Translations under genes and position numbers: made by a program
In this document: positions 1 through 25,342 of the stretch, one piece after another
How the letters are laid out: every line of letters begins with the position of its first letter
Numbering within the stretch: the stretch's first letter is position 1
Notes under the pieces: model-generated
What the model saw: only the letters and a program-made list of their open reading frames with translations
Databases searched by the model: none
Told to the model about the DNA's origin: nothing
NCBI RefSeq assembly: GCF_035285525.1
Contig: NZ_JAYKGW010000052.1
Span: forward strand, 1 to 32,000
DNA from: Okeania sp.
GTDB taxonomy: Bacteria; Cyanobacteriota; Cyanobacteriia; Cyanobacteriales; Microcoleaceae
DNA: 32,000 nt
Direction: 5' to 3'

Positions 1-118
1 AGAAATTTTAGAAGAGAAAAAACGATTAGATATTAAGCTGAGTTATGAAGTGCTGAAGTCTGCAGAAAAACAAAAAGAAACTCAAGGTAATCAGTTGAAA
101 TTTGATTTAGATATTTAG
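1..118 (+). CDS. 3' end of an unidentified ORF entering from the left edge (...EILEEKKRLDIKLSYEVLKSAEKQKETQGNQLKFDLDI*)
   Basis: Frame 2 is open from base 2 to TAG at 116-118. Composition is charged and coiled-coil-like. It is missing from the ORF track because it is open-ended. No family recognised. Confidence 0.35.
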   Translation, partial: EILEEKKRLDIKLSYEVLKSAEKQKETQGNQLKFDLDI

Positions 119-517
119 GGATTTTAAAATTAATCAAAAACAGGATTAAGAAGAGCAAAAATTAATCTTCAAGATAATCATTTTGACAATACAAAAGTAG
201 GGGCAGGTTAATAACTTCCCCTATACAAATTTAATGCTTTGATAGGCGCACAATATTTCAACTATGCCATAACTATCCGTGGAGTTCGGGGCATTTTATC
301 TATTTATTATAAAGCACAATAAAATAATTCAGTATATTTAAAAAAAAATAATACTTAATCTACAAAGTCTTTATCTTCCCGATCGTGGTAAATTTCTGAA
401 TATGAAGTTGCGATCGCTAACTCCAGAACCAAATTTTTATACTAAAAAATCAGGCGATCGCTCTATTAAACTTTAACAACAGAAGTTAATTTAGATTAAA
501 AATTAATAACTACTAAT

Positions 518-1435
518 GTGCAATTTTTTGACATTATTGAAGTTCCAGAAGATTCAATTTTAGAAACTGAACAACTTGGAACTAAAGATAAATTTTGGTA
601 TTGCCAGGATAAACTTAATTATTTATATAAAAAAGCTAGACTTAATACTGGGGAAGCTTGGTCAGAAAAAATAGCATCAGAATTATGTGAGTTACTAAAC
701 CTACCTCATGCACATTATGAACTAGCAATTTGGAAAGGATATTTAGGCACAATTTCTCCTTCTTTTGTACCAGAAAATAACACTCTTATTCTTGGTAAGC
801 AAATTTTAGTAAAAATAGATGAAAGTTATCTTGAATCTAGAGATAAGAAATATAGAGTTTCTGAACATACTCTTGATATTGTAGTTGAGGCGATCGCCAA
901 TAATTCTATTAAATTACCTTTAAACTGGAAACCTCCTGAAGGTATTGAAACAAAAATAGAAACTTTTGTTGGTTACTTATTATTAGATGCTTGGATAAGT
1001 AACCAAGATAGGCATGACGAAAATTGGGGATTTATTATGAATAATTCAATATATTTAGCACCAACATTCGACCACGCATCTAGTCTCGGTAGAGAATTTC
1101 AAGACTACCAAAAACAGAATAAAATAAATAATAAAGTTGTTAAAAATTATGTAGATAAATCAACGTCAGCAATGTATGACAAAATGGTAGATAAAAAATC
1201 TATGTTAACACTAGATTTATTTGAAAAAGCAGCACAAAAATATCCCAAAGCTGCTCTGATTTGGCTCCAAAATTTAGCCAATATATCAGCAGAGGATACT
1301 TTATCTTTATTTAAACGTATACCTAAAAATTATATCTCGGAAATTTCTATTGAATTTGCTCAAGAAATTTTGACAATTAACCAAAATAGACTTCTAAAAA
1401 TAAGAGAAAATTTGCAATTAAAAAATTATTCTTAG
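518..1435 (+). CDS. HipA-like Ser/Thr protein kinase, core (C-terminal) kinase domain only
   Basis: GTG start. The catalytic-loop-like motif LLDAWISNQDRHDENWGF fits the HipA D-x-H-x-x-N pattern. It is followed by APTFDHASSLG, a Mg-binding Asp region. LGTKDKFWY near the N-terminus resembles the HipA/HipT nucleotide loop. At about 305 aa it lacks the HipA N-terminal subdomain. Confidence 0.8.
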   Translation: MQFFDIIEVPEDSILETEQLGTKDKFWYCQDKLNYLYKKARLNTGEAWSEKIASELCELLNLPHAHYELAIWKGYLGTISPSFVPENNTLILGKQILVKIDESYLESRDKKYRVSEHTLDIVVEAIANNSIKLPLNWKPPEGIETKIETFVGYLLLDAWISNQDRHDENWGFIMNNSIYLAPTFDHASSLGREFQDYQKQNKINNKVVKNYVDKSTSAMYDKMVDKKSMLTLDLFEKAAQKYPKAALIWLQNLANISAEDTLSLFKRIPKNYISEISIEFAQEILTINQNRLLKIRENLQLKNYS

Positions 1436-2160
1436 CTTGGCAAGATTCCAATAGTCATGCTTGGTTTCCTGTAGGTTCTTTAACTTATAAAAATAATTGG
1501 TATGAATTTATTTATCTTAGAGGTGCAGAAGAAGCAAAAAAATTCGGCTTTTCTGGTGTTTGGTCTTTAAATGACTTTGATAAAATTTATCGCTCCCAGG
1601 AATTATTGCCTATATTTTCTCATAGAATTATGAAAAGAAGCAGACCAGATTATCCAGATTTTATTAGTTGGCAAAATCTCTCAGAAACAGAAGATAATCC
1701 TATGGTTTTGTTGTCTCGTAGCAGCGGTAAAAAAGTAACAGATAATTATGAAATTTTTCCTTATCCAGAACAAGATGAAAATGGTGTTTATCATCTATAT
1801 TTTTTTATTCATGGTTTCCGATATATGGCGTCTGAAACTATTGAAAAAATCAAAAAATTAGAGGTAGGAGAAACTTTGTATTTAATGCACGATGCACAAA
1901 ACGACTTTGACTCAAATGCTTTAATGCTACGCACTAAAGATTTTTACCTTTTAGGTTTTTGTCCGCGATATTTATTAAGTGATATTTTTCCCTTAGTAAA
2001 AGAGTATCGTAATTCAGTTCAAATAACATTAGATAAAGTCAATTTACCACCAGCACCATTACAAATGAGATTGCTTTGTCATTTAACAATAAAACATGAT
2101 AATTTTCAACCTTTTTCTAGCGAAATGTATGAATCTTTAGCTGTACCAATTTTTAGTTAA
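1417..2160 (+). CDS. HipS-like (HipA N-terminal subdomain-like) + HIRAN domain protein; start undefined
   Basis: Frame 1 is open from 1390. The stretch LAWQDSNSHAWFPVGSLTYKNNWYEFIYLRGAEEAKKFGF...YRSQELLPIFSHRIMKRSRPDY resembles the HipA N-subdomain/HipS. The C-terminal FIHGFRY...LEVGETLYLMHDAQNDFDSNALMLRT...LGFCPRYL matches HIRAN. There is no ATG/GTG/TTG between 1390 and the track's TTG at 1606, only ATT at 1417, so the 5' coordinate is nominal. Confidence 0.7.
   Translation: MKKLFLAWQDSNSHAWFPVGSLTYKNNWYEFIYLRGAEEAKKFGFSGVWSLNDFDKIYRSQELLPIFSHRIMKRSRPDYPDFISWQNLSETEDNPMVLLSRSSGKKVTDNYEIFPYPEQDENGVYHLYFFIHGFRYMASETIEKIKKLEVGETLYLMHDAQNDFDSNALMLRTKDFYLLGFCPRYLLSDIFPLVKEYRNSVQITLDKVNLPPAPLQMRLLCHLTIKHDNFQPFSSEMYESLAVPIFS
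1420..1426 (+). promoter_or_regulatory. Candidate -1 frameshift heptamer A_AAA_AAT (A6 tract) linking the kinase frame to the HipS-HIRAN frame
   Basis: Kinase zero-frame codons are AAA (1421-1423) and AAT (1424-1426), preceded by A1420, which is X_XXY_YYZ phasing. The -1 frame continues TTA TTC TTA GCT TGG, giving LFLAW. Function is untested. Confidence 0.3.
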
Positions 2161-2162
2161 AT

Positions 2163-2274
2163 AGGATTTACGCAGAAACCGGGTTTCTTGGTGGCTTTGC
2201 TTACAGTGCTTTTCCCGAAGTAGGGACGTTGCATGCAACGTCCCTACTAGATATGGTGGTTATGCGTAAGTCCT
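2163..2274. mobile_element. MITE-like element (TIR aggatttacgca / tgcgtaagtcct)
   Basis: 12-bp terminal inverted repeats with 1 mismatch. It contains the palindromic core agaaaccgggtttct (2174-2188) and a perfect 28-bp palindrome gtagggacgttgcatgcaacgtccctac (2220-2247). A related copy lies at 5787-5885. Confidence 0.6.
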
Positions 2275-2333
2275 GTTTGATATTCGATAAAATAAATAAA
2301 AAGAATTTAACCTGAAATAGGAGTAATAAGAAT

Positions 2334-3701
2334 ATGTCTGTATATATAAATCACCTTGAAGCTAAAGGAATTTATGGAATTTTTGATATAAATTTAGATT
2401 TTCATCAAGGAGTTAATATTTTATTTGCTAAAAATGGCAAAGGAAAAACTACTTTGCTACATATTATTGCTAATTTACTTAATGAAGACTATGAAAAATT
2501 TGCCTTTATTGATTTTGATTATATTAATATGACGATGAGTAATGAAAGTCAAATTGAGTTAAAAAATAATATAAATGATGAGGAAATTATATTATTTTTA
2601 GATGGAGTAGAAGCAACAAAAATTCCTGTAAAGGAAATTATCAAAAATCGCTATATTAGAAATCAATTATTCCGTCCAATTATCGAGCGGGTGTCACAAG
2701 AAGTTCCAGAACCAGTTCAAAAAATAATTGGATATAATTTTATTTCAGAGTTAAAAAAGGCAAATTTAACCATAAACATTGAAACCTCAGAATCATCAGA
2801 TCAAAAATTGAAAGCTGCTTATTTTCCAGCTTTTAGAAGTATGATAGAAGCTTGGGCATCAACAGAGGAAAAAAGTGGCAAACTAAGAGACGCTTCTGAT
2901 GAAGAAAAGCAGCGACAAAAAACAAATTTTGCACGTCAAATTTTTGGGAATTTTGTTCCGTTAATTAACTATCCATCTCTTCTAGAAATAGAACAAGTAT
3001 TAAACCAAAAAATTTCTCAGGCTTTTTATGAAGTTAAACAAGCAGAGCAAAAATATTTAGGTGGTATCCTATCTCAGATATTTAATACTCTTTCCAAAAA
3101 TTCAAATACAATTCTAGAAGAAAATTCAAATACAATTCTAGAAGAAATCAAACAACTGAGTAACGATCTAAAGCTTCAAATGCCTGAAGACCTCCGCACT
3201 GCTGTTGAATCATTTCAAGCTAATGAAAAATCGAAAGATGCTGCTGTCAGGATTTTAATTACCTACAGAGAAGCACTGCAAAAAATATCTAATGAACAGA
3301 AAACTTATTTTCAGAATATTGAGAAATATCTAGCTGCTGTTAATTCATTTTTAGATAGTAAAGAGATAGAAATTATCTTCAAAAATTTACCAACTTTAGG
3401 CATAAATTTCCAGAATGGTATGCCTCCTATCCCTGGAATAAGTAAAGCATTATCATCAGGAGAACGTCAAATTTTAACCATGATATATGCTGCCTCTCAA
3501 ATGAGCGAACAAGAAATAGTTTTAATTGATGAACCTGAAATTTCTCTTCATGTTGATTGGCAACGTAAATTATTAGAAAAAATCTCTCAACAGTTGGGTG
3601 AAAAACAAATTATTGCTTGTACTCATTCTCCAGTAGTAGGAGCTGACTATGAGGACGAAATAATAATACTTGAACCTCAAAAAATCAAAATTATTAAATA
3701 G
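2334..3701 (+). CDS. ABC/AAA-type ATPase (AAA_15/21-like), AriA-like component of a PARIS-like pair
   Basis: aggag SD lies 9 nt upstream. Walker A is AKNGKGKTTLLH. The C-terminal region has the ABC signature SSGERQ, Walker B IVLIDEPEISLH and H-loop ACTHSP. The long middle insert is helical. Confidence 0.8.
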   Translation: MSVYINHLEAKGIYGIFDINLDFHQGVNILFAKNGKGKTTLLHIIANLLNEDYEKFAFIDFDYINMTMSNESQIELKNNINDEEIILFLDGVEATKIPVKEIIKNRYIRNQLFRPIIERVSQEVPEPVQKIIGYNFISELKKANLTINIETSESSDQKLKAAYFPAFRSMIEAWASTEEKSGKLRDASDEEKQRQKTNFARQIFGNFVPLINYPSLLEIEQVLNQKISQAFYEVKQAEQKYLGGILSQIFNTLSKNSNTILEENSNTILEEIKQLSNDLKLQMPEDLRTAVESFQANEKSKDAAVRILITYREALQKISNEQKTYFQNIEKYLAAVNSFLDSKEIEIIFKNLPTLGINFQNGMPPIPGISKALSSGERQILTMIYAASQMSEQEIVLIDEPEISLHVDWQRKLLEKISQQLGEKQIIACTHSPVVGADYEDEIIILEPQKIKIIK

Positions 3702-3762
3702 TTTATACAGCGAAAGTATATGAGTAAAATTAGAATAAAAAGGAAGATAAATAATAGTAATA

Positions 3763-4737
3763 ATGCCAAAATGCACTCCCAAATTTACTCCAAAAGAGTA
3801 CCGAATTTACTTGATGAATAGTAATCAAAAACATATTTTAGTTGAAGGTAAAAATGATAAATATTTTATCGAAAGAATGTTGTCTTATCTAGCAAATGAA
3901 ATAGATAAACCAGAACTCAATGAACAAGTTGTTGTAGATTCAGCAGAATTTTTAATTAAAGCTGATTCAGGAACAGGTAATAATAAGGAAAAAGTTGAGG
4001 AAATTGCAAATAGCGTAGTTGATAAACCTTACAGTCAAAGATTTATTGCTTTCATAGACCGGGAATTATATTTATTTAATTGGGATTATGAACAAACTCA
4101 AATATTGCAAGACAATTTTCCCGCACATAATATAGAAAAACGAATTATCAGAACACGAGGGCATTCATTAGAAAACTATTTATTTGAACTAGACATAGTT
4201 AGTAATTTTTTTAATATAAATACAATAATACCTAATCCCCAAATAGCGACAAATTTATTTAGACAAATTTTTAAATCAGTAATATATTCAGCTTGTACTA
4301 TTGGTTTAGCTGCTACTAAAACTAAGCTGTTACAAAAAATAGAATCAGGTATTCTCTGGAGAAATTTTATTGAGTTAACCTCTGGAGAAATAAATTTTTT
4401 GTTAGAAGATTGGTTAGATTTTTTGACAGATAAACGTAGTGTACCGGATAGCAAAATTTTAGAAATCAAGCAAAATTATGAAATTTATATTCAACTTATT
4501 AATCAAACATCTTTTGAAATTGTGAGATGGCTATCTCATGGTCATATTGGTTATGATTTTTTGAGAGAAGCATATATTAAATGTGTTATGGAAGTTAGCA
4601 AAGAAGACATTAGTAATGTTGATTGGATAGCAAAAGATAAGAGGGTGAATCTGTTGACTAACTATTGGATTGAAGAAATATTAAGTAATAACAGGATGTA
4701 TTTTAAAGAAATATTTGAAATGTTAGATTTATCATAG
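3763..4737 (+). CDS. DUF4435 / Toprim (OLD-family-like) nuclease, AriB-like
   Basis: HILVEGKNDKYFIERML is a Toprim Glu motif typical of DUF4435. Also present are IAFIDRE and RTRGHSLENYLF. It lies 61 nt downstream of the ATPase on the same strand. An alternative start is ATG 3814. Confidence 0.75.
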   Translation: MPKCTPKFTPKEYRIYLMNSNQKHILVEGKNDKYFIERMLSYLANEIDKPELNEQVVVDSAEFLIKADSGTGNNKEKVEEIANSVVDKPYSQRFIAFIDRELYLFNWDYEQTQILQDNFPAHNIEKRIIRTRGHSLENYLFELDIVSNFFNINTIIPNPQIATNLFRQIFKSVIYSACTIGLAATKTKLLQKIESGILWRNFIELTSGEINFLLEDWLDFLTDKRSVPDSKILEIKQNYEIYIQLINQTSFEIVRWLSHGHIGYDFLREAYIKCVMEVSKEDISNVDWIAKDKRVNLLTNYWIEEILSNNRMYFKEIFEMLDLS

Positions 4738-4816
4738 CAATTTCTACAGTTATAGCAAATTACAAGTATATGAAGCACAAATTTAATAATTAAATCTTCA
4801 TAAGTAGCGATTTTTC

Positions 4817-4876
4817 GGGAACCGTGCATCTTGCTCGCTTAAGTGTACCTCATAAAGGTGGAATCTCTTGTATAAT
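4817..4876 (+). repeat. About 55-nt dispersed repeat unit (family D)
   Basis: gcatcttgctcgc...gtgtacctca...ggaatctcttgtataat. Related units lie at 12070-12120, 16035-16090, 17814-17868 (inverted) and 23971-24023. Confidence 0.55.
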
Positions 4877-4983
4877 CTCCCTATATCTTCCTTGGAAAAA
4901 GATACTTTTTGTTGAGTCCCCCCTTTCCATCTACCGTAAACAAAATTTAGTATAACTATTTTCAACTTTTTATTATTAATAAC

Positions 4984-5786: not shown

Positions 5787-5885
5787 AGGACTTACCCAGA
5801 TGAACCCAGAAACCCGGTTTCTTGTAGACTTCTATTGCTCAAAACAACCATTTATCCTAGAAACCGGGTTTCTTTGCGTAAGTCT
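5787..5885. mobile_element. MITE-like element, same family as 2163-2274
   Basis: TIR aggacttaccca / tgcgtaagtct. Two copies of the agaaacc(c)ggtttct core lie at 5808-5822 and 5859-5873. Confidence 0.55.
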
Positions 5886-17813: not shown

Positions 17814-17924
17814 TATACAGCAGATTCTACCTTGGTGAGATATAATCGCGGGAGCAAGATGCCCGCACTAAAAATATTTAATTGATTAATATCTTTACTT
17901 CATATACTTGGAATCTGCTGTATA
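17814..17924. mobile_element. MITE-like element with perfect 14-bp TIR tatacagcagattc / gaatctgctgtata
   Basis: TIRs at 17814-17827 and 17911-17924. The left arm is an inverted family D unit. Confidence 0.6.
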
Positions 17925-19050: not shown

Positions 19051-19423
19051 TAGGGTGCGTTAGCGGTAGCGTAACGCACCAATACTATATATAGAGTACT
19101 GGTGCGTTGTGCGTTGTGCGCTTTTCATGTCGCCCAGCGTTTCGGCGCTTGAGCCGACATATAAAGCGTAGCTTTGCGGAACGCAAAACCTACCCTACCA
19201 ATAGCGTTCATGGCTTTAGTCCTATAGAAAAAAACCTACTTCTTGACTCAGCTATATTTGCAGCTTTGTCAAGAAATGGTACAAGACCTATCAACCTAAT
19301 GTCGCAACATTTTATCAAACAGGACTTACCCATGCGAAACTAGGTTTCTAGGGTAAATCATTGTTTTTGACAATAAACATCTAGGAGAAACCGGGTTTCT
19401 GGGTTCCCATGGCTTTAGTCCTG
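19051..19423. mobile_element. Nest of MITE-like repeats (gtgcgtt/aacgcac hairpin, gcttttcatgtcgc module, aggacttaccca...ggctttagtcct element at 19321-19423)
   Basis: Sequence modules are shared with 8251-8340, 20470-20538, 2163-2274 and 5787-5885. It contains the agaaaccgggtttct core at 19386-19400. Confidence 0.55.
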
Positions 19424-24110: not shown

Positions 24111-24376
24111 AGTCAGGAAGAAGGAAGAAACCTTTAACAAAACAAAAAAGGATAAATGAATGATAGATATAACTATCTAAATTAATTCTAGCAGCTATTT
24201 TTAAGCATTTCCAATCAGCATCTAGCTTTTGACAACATTCTTTTTTCAAAATGGCATTACTGATAAATGATAACTAAAAATGACTAATTATTAATTCTCT
24301 AATAACAACAGATTTTTATCTGACTTCCAACTTACAAATCATCTAATTGCTAGATTTTTATTCAGTTATTATTGAG

Positions 24377-25342
24377 CTATTCTGAAGATTTATCAACATC
24401 AGTTTTCGGAGCAAAATCTGTATTTTCTTTCTCTGGTTTAAGAGTGTTAGAAACATGCTGAGAATTATTTGTATTTTCGGGAGACTTATCAACATCAATT
24501 TTCGGAGAAAAATCTGTATTCTTTGGCTCCTGTTCTAATTTTTTATCAACAGAATTTTGATAATTATGCATTTTTTCTGGAGGTTTTTCTACATCAATTT
24601 TCGGAGCAAAATCTGTAGTCTTTTTATCCGGTTCTAATTGATCAGAATGTTGCTGAGAAATTGGCACTAATGCAGAAAAATAAGGATTGTTTTTTGGTGT
24701 ATTGTATTGATTTAAAGATACCTGTTGCCAATGTTGTCGGTAGAGCAATTCTAACTCATTACCCGCTTTCCGAAAAACCTTCATTTGATTAAATAACAAA
24801 CTTTGAAATAATCGATAAAATACCAAACTAAAAATAGCCACTATCAAACCAGCAGCCGTACTAATTAAAGCTTCTCCAATACCTACTGTTACTCCTGCTG
24901 TCGAAGAAGTACCCAAATCACCCAAGCGAATAGAACCCAGGGAACCAATCAGACCCAAAACCGTCCCTAATAATCCTAGCATAGGAGCTAAAGCAATTAC
25001 TCCTTCTAGTAACTTATCTCCCTTGCGCATGGAGGCCAACTCATCCTCAGCAGCAGACTCCAGTGCCAATTTAAACACTTCTGGCTCTGGTTTTTGTAAT
25101 CTCAAAGGTGAATAGAGAAAACGACCAATAGGTTGTTTAATGGCACGTCTTGCCATTTCCGTTGCTATACTCCAGTCACGGCGTGCCGCTTCTAATACTC
25201 GGTTAACCGTTCGTTTTTCCCTAATTAACAGGTTTGTCCAGAACCATAGTCGATCGATTATGGTACTTAGGGATAAAATTGATAAAACTAACAGAGGCCA
25301 CATAGCAGGGCCTCCTTTTTGAATCAACTCTTCAAAAGTCAC
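24377..25342 (-). CDS. exbB: MotA/TolQ/ExbB-family proton channel with repeat-containing C-terminal tail
   Basis: GTG start with ggagtg [14 protein letters not shown]...[17 protein letters not shown]...[17 protein letters not shown] is the ExbB core. The tail has three TDF(A/S)PK(I/T)DV(E/D)K units. Confidence 0.85.

What the first reader, a model, noticed from the sequence alone, without database searches (positions are those of the whole stretch)
1..4980. Compact AT-rich defence island joining two translation-targeting abortive-infection modules
Four co-directional genes (Hip kinase, HipS-HIRAN, ATPase, DUF4435) occupy 518-4737. This stretch is visibly more AT-rich than the housekeeping genes to the right. 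The island is punctuated by a MITE with a perfect 28-bp palindrome (2220-2247) between the modules. It is bounded on the right by a family D repeat (4817-4876), and an unidentified coiled-coil ORF ends at 118 on the left. Established knowledge for the two families says that Hip kinases inactivate aminoacyl-tRNA synthetases and PARIS effectors cut tRNA. Co-location of a synthetase-poisoning and a tRNA-cutting system, one with a DNA-end sensor and one with an anti-restriction-protein sensor, suggests layered or possibly coupled defence. Whether the four genes act as one unit is open, and this is the most likely place for an undescribed system in this window.
Basis: inference. Interest (0 to 1): 0.65.

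Follow-up and report, generated by a model that had tools for sequence, protein, structure and literature searches.

The report
Defence island: hipIN next to PARIS
Two separate, already described anti-phage-type gene pairs (a HipA-like kinase module and a PARIS system) sit side by side in an AT-rich island of a marine filamentous cyanobacterium, but the pairing occurs in one narrow lineage only and shows no sign of being a single four-gene system.

Summary
The four co-directional genes, the AT-richness, the MITE with its perfect 28-bp palindrome and the right-hand repeat are all real.

- **Genes 3–4** are a bona fide, intact PARIS system. AriA matches PDB 8ux9_B at E = 3e-71 and AriB matches 8ux9_A at 9e-11, with all ATPase and TOPRIM motifs kept.
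- **Genes 1–2** are the predicted hipIN module (HipI kinase plus HipN with a HIRAN domain), which is PADLOC candidate PDC-M03.
- **The "coiled-coil ORF"** at the left edge is the 3′ end of a DNA methyltransferase–Mrr fusion, so the island runs off the window.

The four-gene order recurs only in one *Okeania*/Microcoleaceae clade (six distinct lineages). There PARIS was lost at least three times, once leaving an AriB remnant, while hipIN stayed. hipI is broken in one locus whose PARIS is intact. About 70 more distant hipIN loci and four more distant PARIS loci never show the pairing. The MITE between the modules is absent from every relative, so it is a late insertion.

In this genome both hip genes have lost their ATG. 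A 1-nt deletion leaves hipI with only a GTG start, and hipN has ATG→ATT.

Verdict: an ordinary defence island made of known kinds. Functional coupling is unsupported, though not formally excluded.

The parts
1..118 (+). 3' end of a DNA methyltransferase (N6_N4_Mtase) fused to an Mrr-type endonuclease domain. It is the left-hand member of the island and is cut by the window edge.
   Evidence: The last 38 aa are 97% identical to the C-terminus of the 553-aa ORF L004 6899-8560, which also lies just upstream of hipI there. Pfam on that ORF gives N6_N4_Mtase 2.9e-42 and Mrr_cat 3.9e-08.
516..518 (+). Ancestral hipI ATG, now out of frame because of a 1-nt deletion (TTTATTT to TTTTTT, around 524-529).
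   Evidence: All 7 aligned relatives read ATG TGC/TCC (A/G)AT TTA TTT..., i.e. M-C/S-N/D-L-F-(D/K/N)-I-I-E-V. Only L008 was translated explicitly, giving MCDLFDIIEV. In the window the ATG frame gives MCNFLTLLKFQKIQF*.
518..1435 (+). hipI: short HipA-family Ser/Thr kinase (305 aa), readable only from the GTG at 518.
   Evidence: PADLOC PDC-M03A 1.1e-113. Pfam HipA_2 5.9e-07 and HipA_C 3.4e-06. Conserved G21-T22-K25, D164-R-H-x-x-N169 and D185 are kept. Only 1 of 68 conserved columns deviates, N94K.
1417..2160 (+). hipN: N-terminal HipA-N/HipS-like domain plus C-terminal HIRAN domain (248 codons). The start codon is ATT where all relatives have ATG. It overlaps hipI by 19 nt.
   Evidence: establish the start. 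PADLOC PDC-M03B 1e-62. Pfam HIRAN 9.8e-09. AF2 pLDDT 86, with the C-terminal half matching HLTF HIRAN at probability 1.0.
2163..2275 (.). MITE-like insertion with 12-bp terminal inverted repeats, an AGAAACCGGGTTTCT core and the perfect 28-bp palindrome at 2220-2247.
   Evidence: Absent from every relative at this position. Hairpin of -58 kcal/mol, z = -7.9. The core recurs 5 more times in the window (family D3). The palindrome is identical at other sites in L011, L084 and L096.
2276..2333 (+). Conserved ariA leader: a promoter-like TTGATA-18-AAGAAT and a Shine-Dalgarno AGGAG.
   Evidence: Aligns with the hipN-ariA spacer of L008, L009, L011 and L084. The promoter-like hit is at 2277-2306, but that scan is not above chance overall.
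2334..3701 (+). ariA: PARIS ABC ATPase (455 aa), intact.
   Evidence: PDB 8ux9_B AriA 3.1e-71. Pfam AAA_15 1.3e-18 and AAA_21 4.1e-14. Walker A GKGKTT, signature LSSGERQ, Walker B LIDEPE and H-loop CTHSP are kept.
3763..4737 (+). ariB: PARIS TOPRIM (DUF4435) nuclease (324 aa), intact.
   Evidence: PDB 8ux9_A AriB 8.7e-11 over residues 8-283. PADLOC AriB 7.3e-17. E28, D32, the D-R-E motif and the E of GHSLENY align with E. coli E26, D30, D88/E90 and E122.
4783..4876 (.). Dispersed repeat at the right boundary of the island. Homology with relatives' PARIS ends at about 4733, and MOSC homology starts at 4977.
   Evidence: Inverted copy at 17814-17865 (I4). 86% matches between mnmG and hipI in L001 and L010.

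Best explanation
This is a small, horizontally shuffled defence island made of independent, already described modules. From left to right they are a DNA methyltransferase-Mrr fusion (only its 3' end is in the window), the two-gene hipIN module, and a two-gene PARIS system.

PARIS (shown by homology; mechanism inferred from E. coli B185): AriA hexamers hold AriB inactive. A phage trigger protein binding AriA in an ATP-dependent way releases AriB, which dimerises and cleaves specific host tRNA, stopping translation.

hipIN (mechanism inferred only): the short HipI kinase is presumably held in check by HipN. The HIRAN domain of HipN may sense free DNA ends and release the kinase onto an unknown target in translation.

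The two modules became neighbours once, in the ancestor of an Okeania/Microcoleaceae clade, and have since been kept, lost or inactivated independently. In this genome a MITE later inserted between them. It places a very stable hairpin upstream of ariA, so PARIS most likely relies on its own conserved leader at 2276-2333.

The hip module here is probably attenuated or on its way to decay. hipI has lost its in-frame ATG and has only a GTG start, and hipN has ATT in place of ATG. Both ORFs are otherwise intact.
For: Identity of the parts:
- AriA matches 8ux9_B at 3e-71 with all ATPase motifs kept. AriB matches 8ux9_A at 9e-11 with all five TOPRIM acidic residues kept.
- HipI/HipN match PDC-M03A/B at 1e-113 and 1e-62. 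The HIRAN fold is confirmed.
- The module type is described as hipIN by Gerdes 2021.

Independence of the modules:
- In a syntenic Okeania locus (mnmG - hipIN - X - fam22 - DUF29), X is PARIS in L008, L009, L011/L084 and L031. In L004 mnmG lies upstream of hipIN-PARIS, but fam22/DUF29 were not found downstream.
- X is an unrelated C-type lectin gene in L001, L006 and L010. It is a 216-nt ariB remnant in L005. No PARIS hit in L007.
- On a hipIN tree the PARIS-negative loci are nested among PARIS-positive ones, and the outgroups lack PARIS. This fits one gain and at least 3 losses.
- hipI has a premature stop in L004 while its ariA and ariB are intact.
- 0 of ~70 hipIN loci with under 70% HipN identity have AriA/AriB within 10 kb.
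- AriB relatives at 50% and ~40% identity (L085, L086, L089, L091) have ariA-ariB without hipIN.
- No defence partner recurs near hipIN in 82 loci.

Island status:
- The block is 29.2% GC against 34.8% elsewhere.
- Three MOSC relatives have Wzy_C directly upstream of MOSC and no island.

Other points:
- The MITE is absent from all relatives.
- The start-codon lesions are shown.
Against: - The four-gene order has survived roughly 11% nucleotide and 14-28% protein divergence in six lineages. In the window and in L004 it also travels with the same methyltransferase. Some selective benefit of the linkage therefore cannot be excluded.
- The ancestral hipN-ariA spacer is short (about 60-100 bp), with no recognisable terminator, so co-transcription in relatives is possible.
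- No expression or phenotype data exist for any of these loci.
- hipIN has never been tested experimentally, so its role in defence is itself a prediction.
- The start-codon lesions rest on one genome plus one identical short-read contig from SRR19514071, which may be the same sample.
- GTG and AUU can both initiate translation, so 'attenuated' is an inference.
Confidence: 0.8

Rival explanations
1. The four genes form one integrated system. HipN-HIRAN and AriA act as two sensors, and HipI and AriB as two effectors that jointly shut down translation. They would be co-transcribed and selected as a unit.
For: - The order hipI-hipN-ariA-ariB is conserved in six distinct lineages (window, L004, L008, L009, L011/L084, L031) at 72-87% protein identity.
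- The ancestral spacer is short.
- The block occurs with different right flanks in the window and in Okeania.
- Both known family mechanisms target translation.
Against: - All occurrences trace to a single clade and are consistent with one event.
- PARIS was lost at least 3 times with hipIN retained, once leaving a remnant.
- hipI is broken in L004 with PARIS intact.
- The pairing is never seen in ~70 other hipIN loci or 4 other PARIS loci.
- E. coli PARIS is sufficient for defence as a two-gene system.
- In the window a MITE hairpin separates the modules, and both hip genes have impaired starts.
Confidence: 0.06
2. hipIN here is a chromosomal toxin-antitoxin or addiction module, not a phage-defence system, and it merely stabilises the neighbouring island DNA (the methyltransferase and PARIS). 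The linkage would then be 'selfish' rather than immunological.
For: - In Nostocales, hipIN sits at a conserved locus flanked by housekeeping-like genes in 20-32 loci.
- The decay pattern is typical of toxin-antitoxin pairs: the kinase is broken in L004, L006 and L007 (with late truncations in L009 and L010), while hipN stays intact in all loci but L031.
- Gerdes 2021 classify it as a toxin-antitoxin module.
Against: - PADLOC lists it as a defence candidate, and it lies among defence genes in this clade.
- In the window it is the putative antitoxin that has lost its ATG while the kinase ORF is intact. That is the opposite of what an addiction module would tolerate, unless the kinase is also down-tuned by its GTG start.
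- No experiment exists either way.
Confidence: 0.12
3. The hip module in the window is a recent pseudogene pair and only PARIS is functional. The 'island' would then be effectively PARIS plus relics.
For: - The ATG of hipI is out of frame through a 1-nt deletion, and hipN has ATG changed to ATT.
- hipI decays often in sister genomes.
Against: - Both ORFs are full length.
- HipI deviates at 1 of 68 conserved columns and HipN at 1 of 65, which is within the normal range for relatives.
- GTG is a common bacterial start codon, and AUU with translational coupling can still initiate.
Confidence: 0.3

Closest known systems
PARIS (phage anti-restriction-induced system) AriA/AriB of E. coli B185 (PDB 8ux9, 8v45-8v49; Rousset 2022; Burman 2024, PMC11464382)
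   Same: - Two adjacent co-directional genes, an ABC ATPase of ~455 aa followed by a TOPRIM/DUF4435 nuclease of ~324 aa.
- Direct sequence matches to both solved chains.
- Walker A, Walker B, signature and H-loop motifs of AriA are kept.
- The five acidic TOPRIM residues of AriB are kept.
   Different: - Cyanobacterial, and chromosomal rather than carried on a P4-satellite or prophage hotspot.
- AriB scores only 45 bits against the E. coli protein.
- The arginines of the AriA radial pore (R168/R172) are not conserved (L184/S188), and the central-pore region does not align. Trigger specificity, and whether an Ocr-like anti-restriction protein is sensed, is therefore unknown.
- The tRNA target is unknown.
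hipIN toxin-antitoxin-like module (HipI kinase + HipN; Gerdes, Baerentsen & Brodersen 2021, PMC8262856), which is PADLOC candidate system PDC-M03
   Same: - A short HipA-family kinase lacking N-subdomain-1, followed by a two-domain protein whose C-terminus is HIRAN.
- The genes overlap.
- Gerdes et al. noted a mixed Proteobacteria/Cyanobacteria HipI subclade.
   Different: - In this genome hipI starts at GTG after a frameshifting deletion, and hipN has ATT instead of ATG.
- The 'HipS-like' assignment of the N-terminal domain gets only weak support here.
- No member of the family has been tested experimentally.
HipBST (HipT kinase neutralised by HipS; target TrpS) and HipBA (HipA; target GltX)
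   Same: - The same kinase superfamily.
- The idea that a separate HipA-N-like polypeptide restrains a truncated kinase.
   Different: - There is no HipB-type HTH partner.
- The gene order is kinase first.
- A HIRAN domain is added.
- The target is unknown.
- Sequence similarity to solved Hip kinases is marginal (best PDB hit CtkA, E = 0.008).
HipL (single-chain kinase-HipS-HIRAN)
   Same: The same three domains in the same order.
   Different: Here they are two overlapping ORFs in different frames. All relatives carry a separate ATG for hipN, so this is not a frameshifted HipL.

Membership tests
PARIS (AriA/AriB) | AriA: an ABC-type ATPase homologous to E. coli B185 AriA, with Walker A (K39), Walker B (E393), signature motif and H-loop | tested here: met
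   phmmer against PDB gives 8ux9_B at 3.1e-71. GKGKTT, LSSGERQ, LIDEPE and CTHSP all align to the E. coli motifs. Pfam AAA_15 and AAA_21.
PARIS (AriA/AriB) | AriB: a TOPRIM/DUF4435 nuclease with acidic residues E26, D30, D88, E90 and E122 | tested here: met
   8ux9_A at 8.7e-11 over residues 8-283. Window E28, D32, D-R-E in FIDRELY, and E in GHSLENY align to these residues. PADLOC AriB 7.3e-17. The current Pfam DUF4435 model is not hit by this copy, but close homologues carry PF14491 and the name DUF4435.
PARIS (AriA/AriB) | ariA immediately followed by ariB on the same strand | tested here: met
   2334-3701 and 3763-4737, with a 61-nt spacer. The same pairing is seen in L004, L008, L009, L011, L084, L085, L086, L089 and L091.
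PARIS (AriA/AriB) | Activation by a phage anti-restriction protein (Ocr-like) and cleavage of host tRNA | not testable with these tools
   This needs phage and trigger assays. The radial-pore arginines R168/R172 of E. coli AriA align to L184/S188 here, so the trigger may differ.
hipIN / PDC-M03 | [quoted passage not shown] | tested here: met
   PDC-M03A 1.1e-113. Pfam HipA_2 at 29.4 bits exceeds the 27-bit cut-off. G21-T22-K25, D164-R165-H166...N169 and D185 are conserved in 51 relatives and in the window.
hipIN / PDC-M03 | Downstream partner with a C-terminal HIRAN domain | tested here: met
   Pfam HIRAN 9.8e-09. The AF2 model matches HLTF HIRAN 4s0n/4xzg at probability 1.0 and TM(target) 0.57-0.71.
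hipIN / PDC-M03 | N-terminal domain of HipN is HipS-like (homologous to HipA N-subdomain-1) | tested here: inconclusive
   28 of 41 family members hit Pfam Couple_hipA (best 5.7e-05), but the window copy does not. Foldseek of a pLDDT-92.6 model finds no PDB hit at E <= 0.001. hhalign against E. coli HipA 1-108 gives probability 0.42 and E = 0.14.
hipIN / PDC-M03 | Both genes translatable from canonical start codons, as in other members | tested here: not met
   The hipI ATG is out of frame, leaving only a GTG. hipN has ATT where 13 relatives have ATG. This bears on function in this genome, not on homology.
hipIN / PDC-M03 | Kinase toxicity neutralised by HipN; anti-phage activity | not testable with these tools
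   No experimental study was found in the held literature.
   It recurs only within one clade with >=81% HipN identity. It is absent from all ~70 other hipIN loci and all 4 other PARIS loci examined.
   hipIN persists without PARIS in L001, L005 (remnant), L006, L007 and L010. PARIS is intact with a broken hipI in L004.

The most novel reading that the evidence does not exclude
The clade-wide retention of hipI-hipN-ariA-ariB reflects real functional cross-talk. One example would be a HipN-HIRAN or HipI phosphorylation input that modulates release of AriB from AriA. Another would be the two modules backing each other up against phage tRNA or anti-defence countermeasures. Either would make this a composite translation-targeting system not yet described.
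Probability: 0.05. Interest if true: 0.6.

Novelty: new member of a known kind. Interest (0 to 1): 0.25.

Why it matters
The practical value is modest.
- It documents an intact cyanobacterial PARIS system only distantly related to the E. coli prototype (45 bits for AriB). Its trigger-pore residues differ, which would be useful for asking how PARIS trigger and tRNA specificity vary.
- It gives a natural series of hipIN loci: intact, kinase-broken and start-codon-impaired. That series could guide the first experimental test of whether HipN really is the antitoxin or sensor of HipI.
- It does not open a new class of system. As a case study it shows that adjacency within a defence island, even when conserved across several genomes, can be explained by one ancestral juxtaposition followed by independent loss.

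Tried and rejected
1. **Programmed -1 frameshift.** The A_AAA_AAT run at 1420-1426 could in principle fuse HipI to HipN, giving a HipL-like protein. Rejected: all 13 relatives carry a separate in-frame ATG for hipN at that spot, and the A-run is simply Lys-Lys codons.
2. **TTG at 1606 as the true hipN start.** Rejected: it would delete 63 conserved N-terminal residues that are present and conserved in every homologue.
3. **Relaxed constraint in the window's Hip proteins.** The window is not an outlier, with one deviation each in 68 and 65 conserved columns.
4. **Metagenome scan with an AriA alignment.** It returned a single locus because the chosen peptide patterns were too specific. The reverse test was done instead through an AriB protein search plus four neighbourhood look-ups.
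5. **Structural test of the HipS-like domain.** The model was confident but Foldseek found no significant PDB neighbour. A profile search against PDB sequences also found nothing.
6. **Promoter and terminator scans.** Counts were no higher than in shuffled sequence, so they are uninformative.
7. **tRNA genes and Rfam families near the island.** None were found.
8. **A conserved third partner gene of hipIN**, like the diDNase seen in Actinobacteria. None turned up in 82 cyanobacterial loci.
9. **Whether the block 'moved as a unit'.** This cannot be decided. The window shares the left-hand methyltransferase with L004, and only the right junction (a dispersed repeat at 4783-4876, then MOSC) is demonstrably different. 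A single rearrangement breakpoint would explain that equally well.

Full report
**What is in the sequence**

Four co-directional ORFs occupy 518-4737. The block 491-4737 is 29.2% GC against 34.8% for the remaining 27 kb. None of 231 equal-length windows elsewhere is as AT-rich, and GC3 is 0.17-0.19 against 0.22-0.27 for the three neighbouring genes measured, MOSC, Hsp20 and the RTX ORF.

The perfect 28-bp palindrome at 2220-2247 is real. It lies inside a ~113-bp element (2163-2275) with 12-bp terminal inverted repeats and an AGAAACCGGGTTTCT core. That core recurs five more times in the window. The element folds at -58 kcal/mol, z = -7.9.

The repeat near 4817-4876 has an inverted copy at 17814-17865 and 86% matches in two *Okeania* genomes. 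HIP1 sites (GCGATCGC) and the closest homologues place the window in an uncultured Microcoleaceae cyanobacterium related to *Okeania* and *Trichodesmium*. The only other assembly with identical proteins is a 4.7-kb contig from SRR19514071 that spans exactly window 95-4810.

**Genes 3 and 4 are PARIS**

The 455-aa product of 2334-3701 matches the solved *E. coli* B185 AriA (8ux9_B) at E = 3.1e-71. Walker A (GKGKTT), the signature motif (LSSGERQ), Walker B (LIDEPE) and the H-loop (CTHSP) are all aligned.

The 324-aa product of 3763-4737 matches AriB (8ux9_A) at 8.7e-11 over residues 8-283. It keeps the acidic residues that Burman et al. list as the TOPRIM metal site: E26, D30, D88, E90 and E122 correspond to E28, D32, the D-R-E motif and the E of GHSLENY in the window. 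PADLOC models agree (AriA 7.5e-30, AriB 7.3e-17).

The current Pfam DUF4435 model does not reach this copy. Several close homologues carry PF14491 and are named DUF4435 by NCBI.

The radial-pore arginines that *E. coli* AriA uses for trigger sensing (R168/R172) align to L184/S188, and the central-pore region does not align. Calling this AriA an "anti-restriction-protein sensor" is therefore an extrapolation, and the tRNA target is unknown.

**Genes 1 and 2 are hipIN (PADLOC PDC-M03)**

The kinase matches PDC-M03A at 1.1e-113 and passes Pfam HipA_2. It keeps the Gly-rich loop (G21-T22-K25), the catalytic D164-R-H-x-x-N169 motif and the Mg-binding D185, all of which are invariant in 51 relatives.

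Gene 2 was mis-delimited. The listed ORF starts at a TTG at 1606, but frame 1 is open from 1390. Every homologue is ~248 aa and begins MK(K/T)LFLAWQD, exactly where the window reads A-I-KKLFLAWQD. The real gene is therefore 1417-2160, overlapping hipI by 19 nt as in *Okeania*.

Its C-terminal half is a HIRAN fold: Pfam 9.8e-09, and an AF2 model with pLDDT 86 matches HLTF HIRAN at probability 1.0. This is the hipIN organisation of Gerdes et al. 2021.

The "HipS-like" label for the N-terminal domain has only weak support here:
- 28 of 41 family members hit Pfam Couple_hipA (best 5.7e-05), but the window copy does not.
- A pLDDT-92.6 model has no Foldseek neighbour in the PDB at E <= 0.001.
- hhalign against *E. 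coli* HipA 1-108 is not significant.

No experimental study of hipIN or PDC-M03 was found; it remains a predicted defence or toxin-antitoxin module. The HipI target is unknown, so "synthetase-poisoning" is an extrapolation from HipA and HipT.

**Both hip genes have damaged starts in this genome**

All 13 relatives have ATG at the hipN start. The window and its identical contig have ATT, a G-to-T change at 1419.

Relatives start hipI with ATG TGC AAT TTA TTT GAC. The window lacks the A, so the ATG at 516 now opens a 15-codon out-of-frame peptide, and the kinase frame is reachable only from the overlapping GTG at 518.

Both ORFs are otherwise intact and are not outliers at conserved columns: N94K in HipI and G103S in HipN, one deviation each. 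The lesions are therefore recent or tolerated. I infer reduced expression of both proteins, but this is not shown.

In sister genomes hipI carries premature stops (L004, L006, L007; late truncations in L009 and L010) while hipN stays intact. That is the usual decay pattern of a toxin gene.

**Is the four-gene order a unit?**

A scan of 185,579 species-representative genomes found 315 loci encoding HipN relatives. I kept the best 80, each with 10-kb flanks.

The order hipI-hipN-ariA-ariB appears in L004, L008, L009, L011 and L031 (where every gene is decayed), plus the metagenome contig L084, which is near-identical to L011. All belong to one clade with at least 81% HipN identity.

In that clade the locus is syntenic: mnmG, hipIN, a variable slot, then a 494-aa ORF and DUF29 genes. 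L004 departs from this, because the 494-aa ORF and DUF29 genes were not found downstream of its PARIS. The slot holds:
- PARIS in the loci listed above;
- an unrelated C-type lectin gene in L001, L006 and L010;
- a 216-nt ariB remnant joined directly to the hipN stop in L005;
- no PARIS hit in L007.

On a hipIN tree the PARIS-negative loci are nested among PARIS-positive ones. L005 is sister to L001/L010 at 94% bootstrap, L006 groups with the decayed L031, and the outgroups L012-L014 lack PARIS. This indicates one ancestral juxtaposition and at least three losses.

Conversely, L004 has intact ariA and ariB next to a hipI that has lost its N-terminal third.

None of the ~70 more distant hipIN loci has AriA/AriB within 10 kb. 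No defence-type partner recurs near hipIN at all; the recurrent neighbours are housekeeping genes, reflecting synteny in Nostocales.

From the PARIS side, AriB relatives fall from 79-86% identity (this clade) to 50% and about 40%. In four of those more distant loci, ariA-ariB stands without hipIN, next to RelE, HepT/MNT, an OLD-family nuclease or GmrSD.

**Island boundaries**

The ORF ending at 118 is the C-terminus of a 553-aa N6_N4 methyltransferase-Mrr fusion. The same gene lies just upstream of hipI in L004, so the island extends beyond the window's left edge.

Nucleotide homology with relatives covers 491-2162 and 2276-4733 at about 89%. The gap corresponds exactly to the MITE, which is absent from every relative and is therefore a late insertion. 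Without it the hipN-ariA spacer is about 60-100 bp, and its ariA-proximal half, including the AGGAG Shine-Dalgarno sequence, is conserved.

On the right, three MOSC relatives (77-84% identity) have a Wzy_C gene directly upstream of MOSC and no defence genes. The island is thus absent from that site in relatives.

Whether the block transposed, or only the right flank was rearranged at the dispersed repeat (4783-4876), cannot be decided without the sequence left of the window.

**Conclusion**

The proposal of an undescribed coupled system is not supported.

This is an ordinary defence island made of known kinds:
- an intact, divergent PARIS;
- a hipIN/PDC-M03 module with impaired start codons;
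- a methyltransferase-Mrr gene.

They were juxtaposed once in one lineage and have evolved independently since. Residual probability of real coupling is about 5%.

Noticed in passing
window 516-530 and 1417-1419: Both genes of the hip module have lost their canonical ATG in this genome. A 1-nt deletion puts the hipI ATG out of frame, leaving only the GTG at 518. The hipN start is ATT where 13 relatives have ATG. It is unusual that the putative antitoxin start is hit while the kinase ORF stays intact.
   Followed up: yes
window 797-799 (HipI residue 94): HipI carries K where 98% of 51 relatives have N, in a conserved G-N pair. This is the only deviation at 68 conserved columns. It could attenuate the kinase, but the role of this residue is unknown.
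   Followed up: partly
window 1417-1761 (HipN N-terminal domain): A confident AF2 model (pLDDT 92.6) of the ~115-aa N-terminal domain has no significant Foldseek neighbour in the PDB, although the literature calls it HipS-like. Either the fold differs from the solved HipS/HipA-N structures or Foldseek is insensitive for a domain this small.
   Followed up: partly
window 1-118; L004 6899-8560: The left-edge ORF is the end of an N6_N4 DNA methyltransferase fused to an Mrr-type (PD-(D/E)xK) endonuclease domain. L004 also carries a degenerate second copy of the same gene and a second, unrelated methyltransferase on the other strand between mnmG and hipI.
   Followed up: partly
L004 10881-11283 vs 11518-11915, and 12841-13206: In Okeania sp. 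SIO3I5 the 5' part of ariA is duplicated upstream of the intact gene, and a ~122-bp unit is repeated three times between ariA and ariB. This points to local duplication activity in this island.
   Followed up: no
window 5853-5878, 8299-8324, 10600-10625, 19329-19354, 19380-19405; also 5802-5872 vs 19336-19406: There are further copies of the AGAAACCGGGTTTCT-core MITE family scattered through the window, including a 71-nt inverted pair at 82% complementarity. One copy lies just downstream of MOSC.
   Followed up: no
window 6807-8114: A 435-aa ORF carries ten RTX calcium-binding nonapeptide repeat matches (HemolysinCabind, 3.8e-51). It underlies a 27-nt periodic DNA repeat with 15 copies.
   Followed up: partly
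window 8410-8498: A run of C-rich 7-8-nt tandem units (CCCCGACT / CCCTACT), with an inverted counterpart at 15324-15347.
   Followed up: no
L018-L083 (hipIN loci of Nostocales and other cyanobacteria): In 20-32 distant loci hipIN is flanked by the same housekeeping-like genes, which look by their sequence motifs (no family search was run) like a LuxR-type regulator, a PfkB-type sugar kinase and a gluconokinase-like P-loop protein. Across much of the Cyanobacteria, hipIN therefore looks like a stably inherited chromosomal pair rather than a fast-moving defence cassette.
   Followed up: partly
window 24368-24659: Three tandem ~97-nt repeats at 68-73% identity. These are probably a repeated peptide module in a minus-strand ORF.
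   Followed up: no
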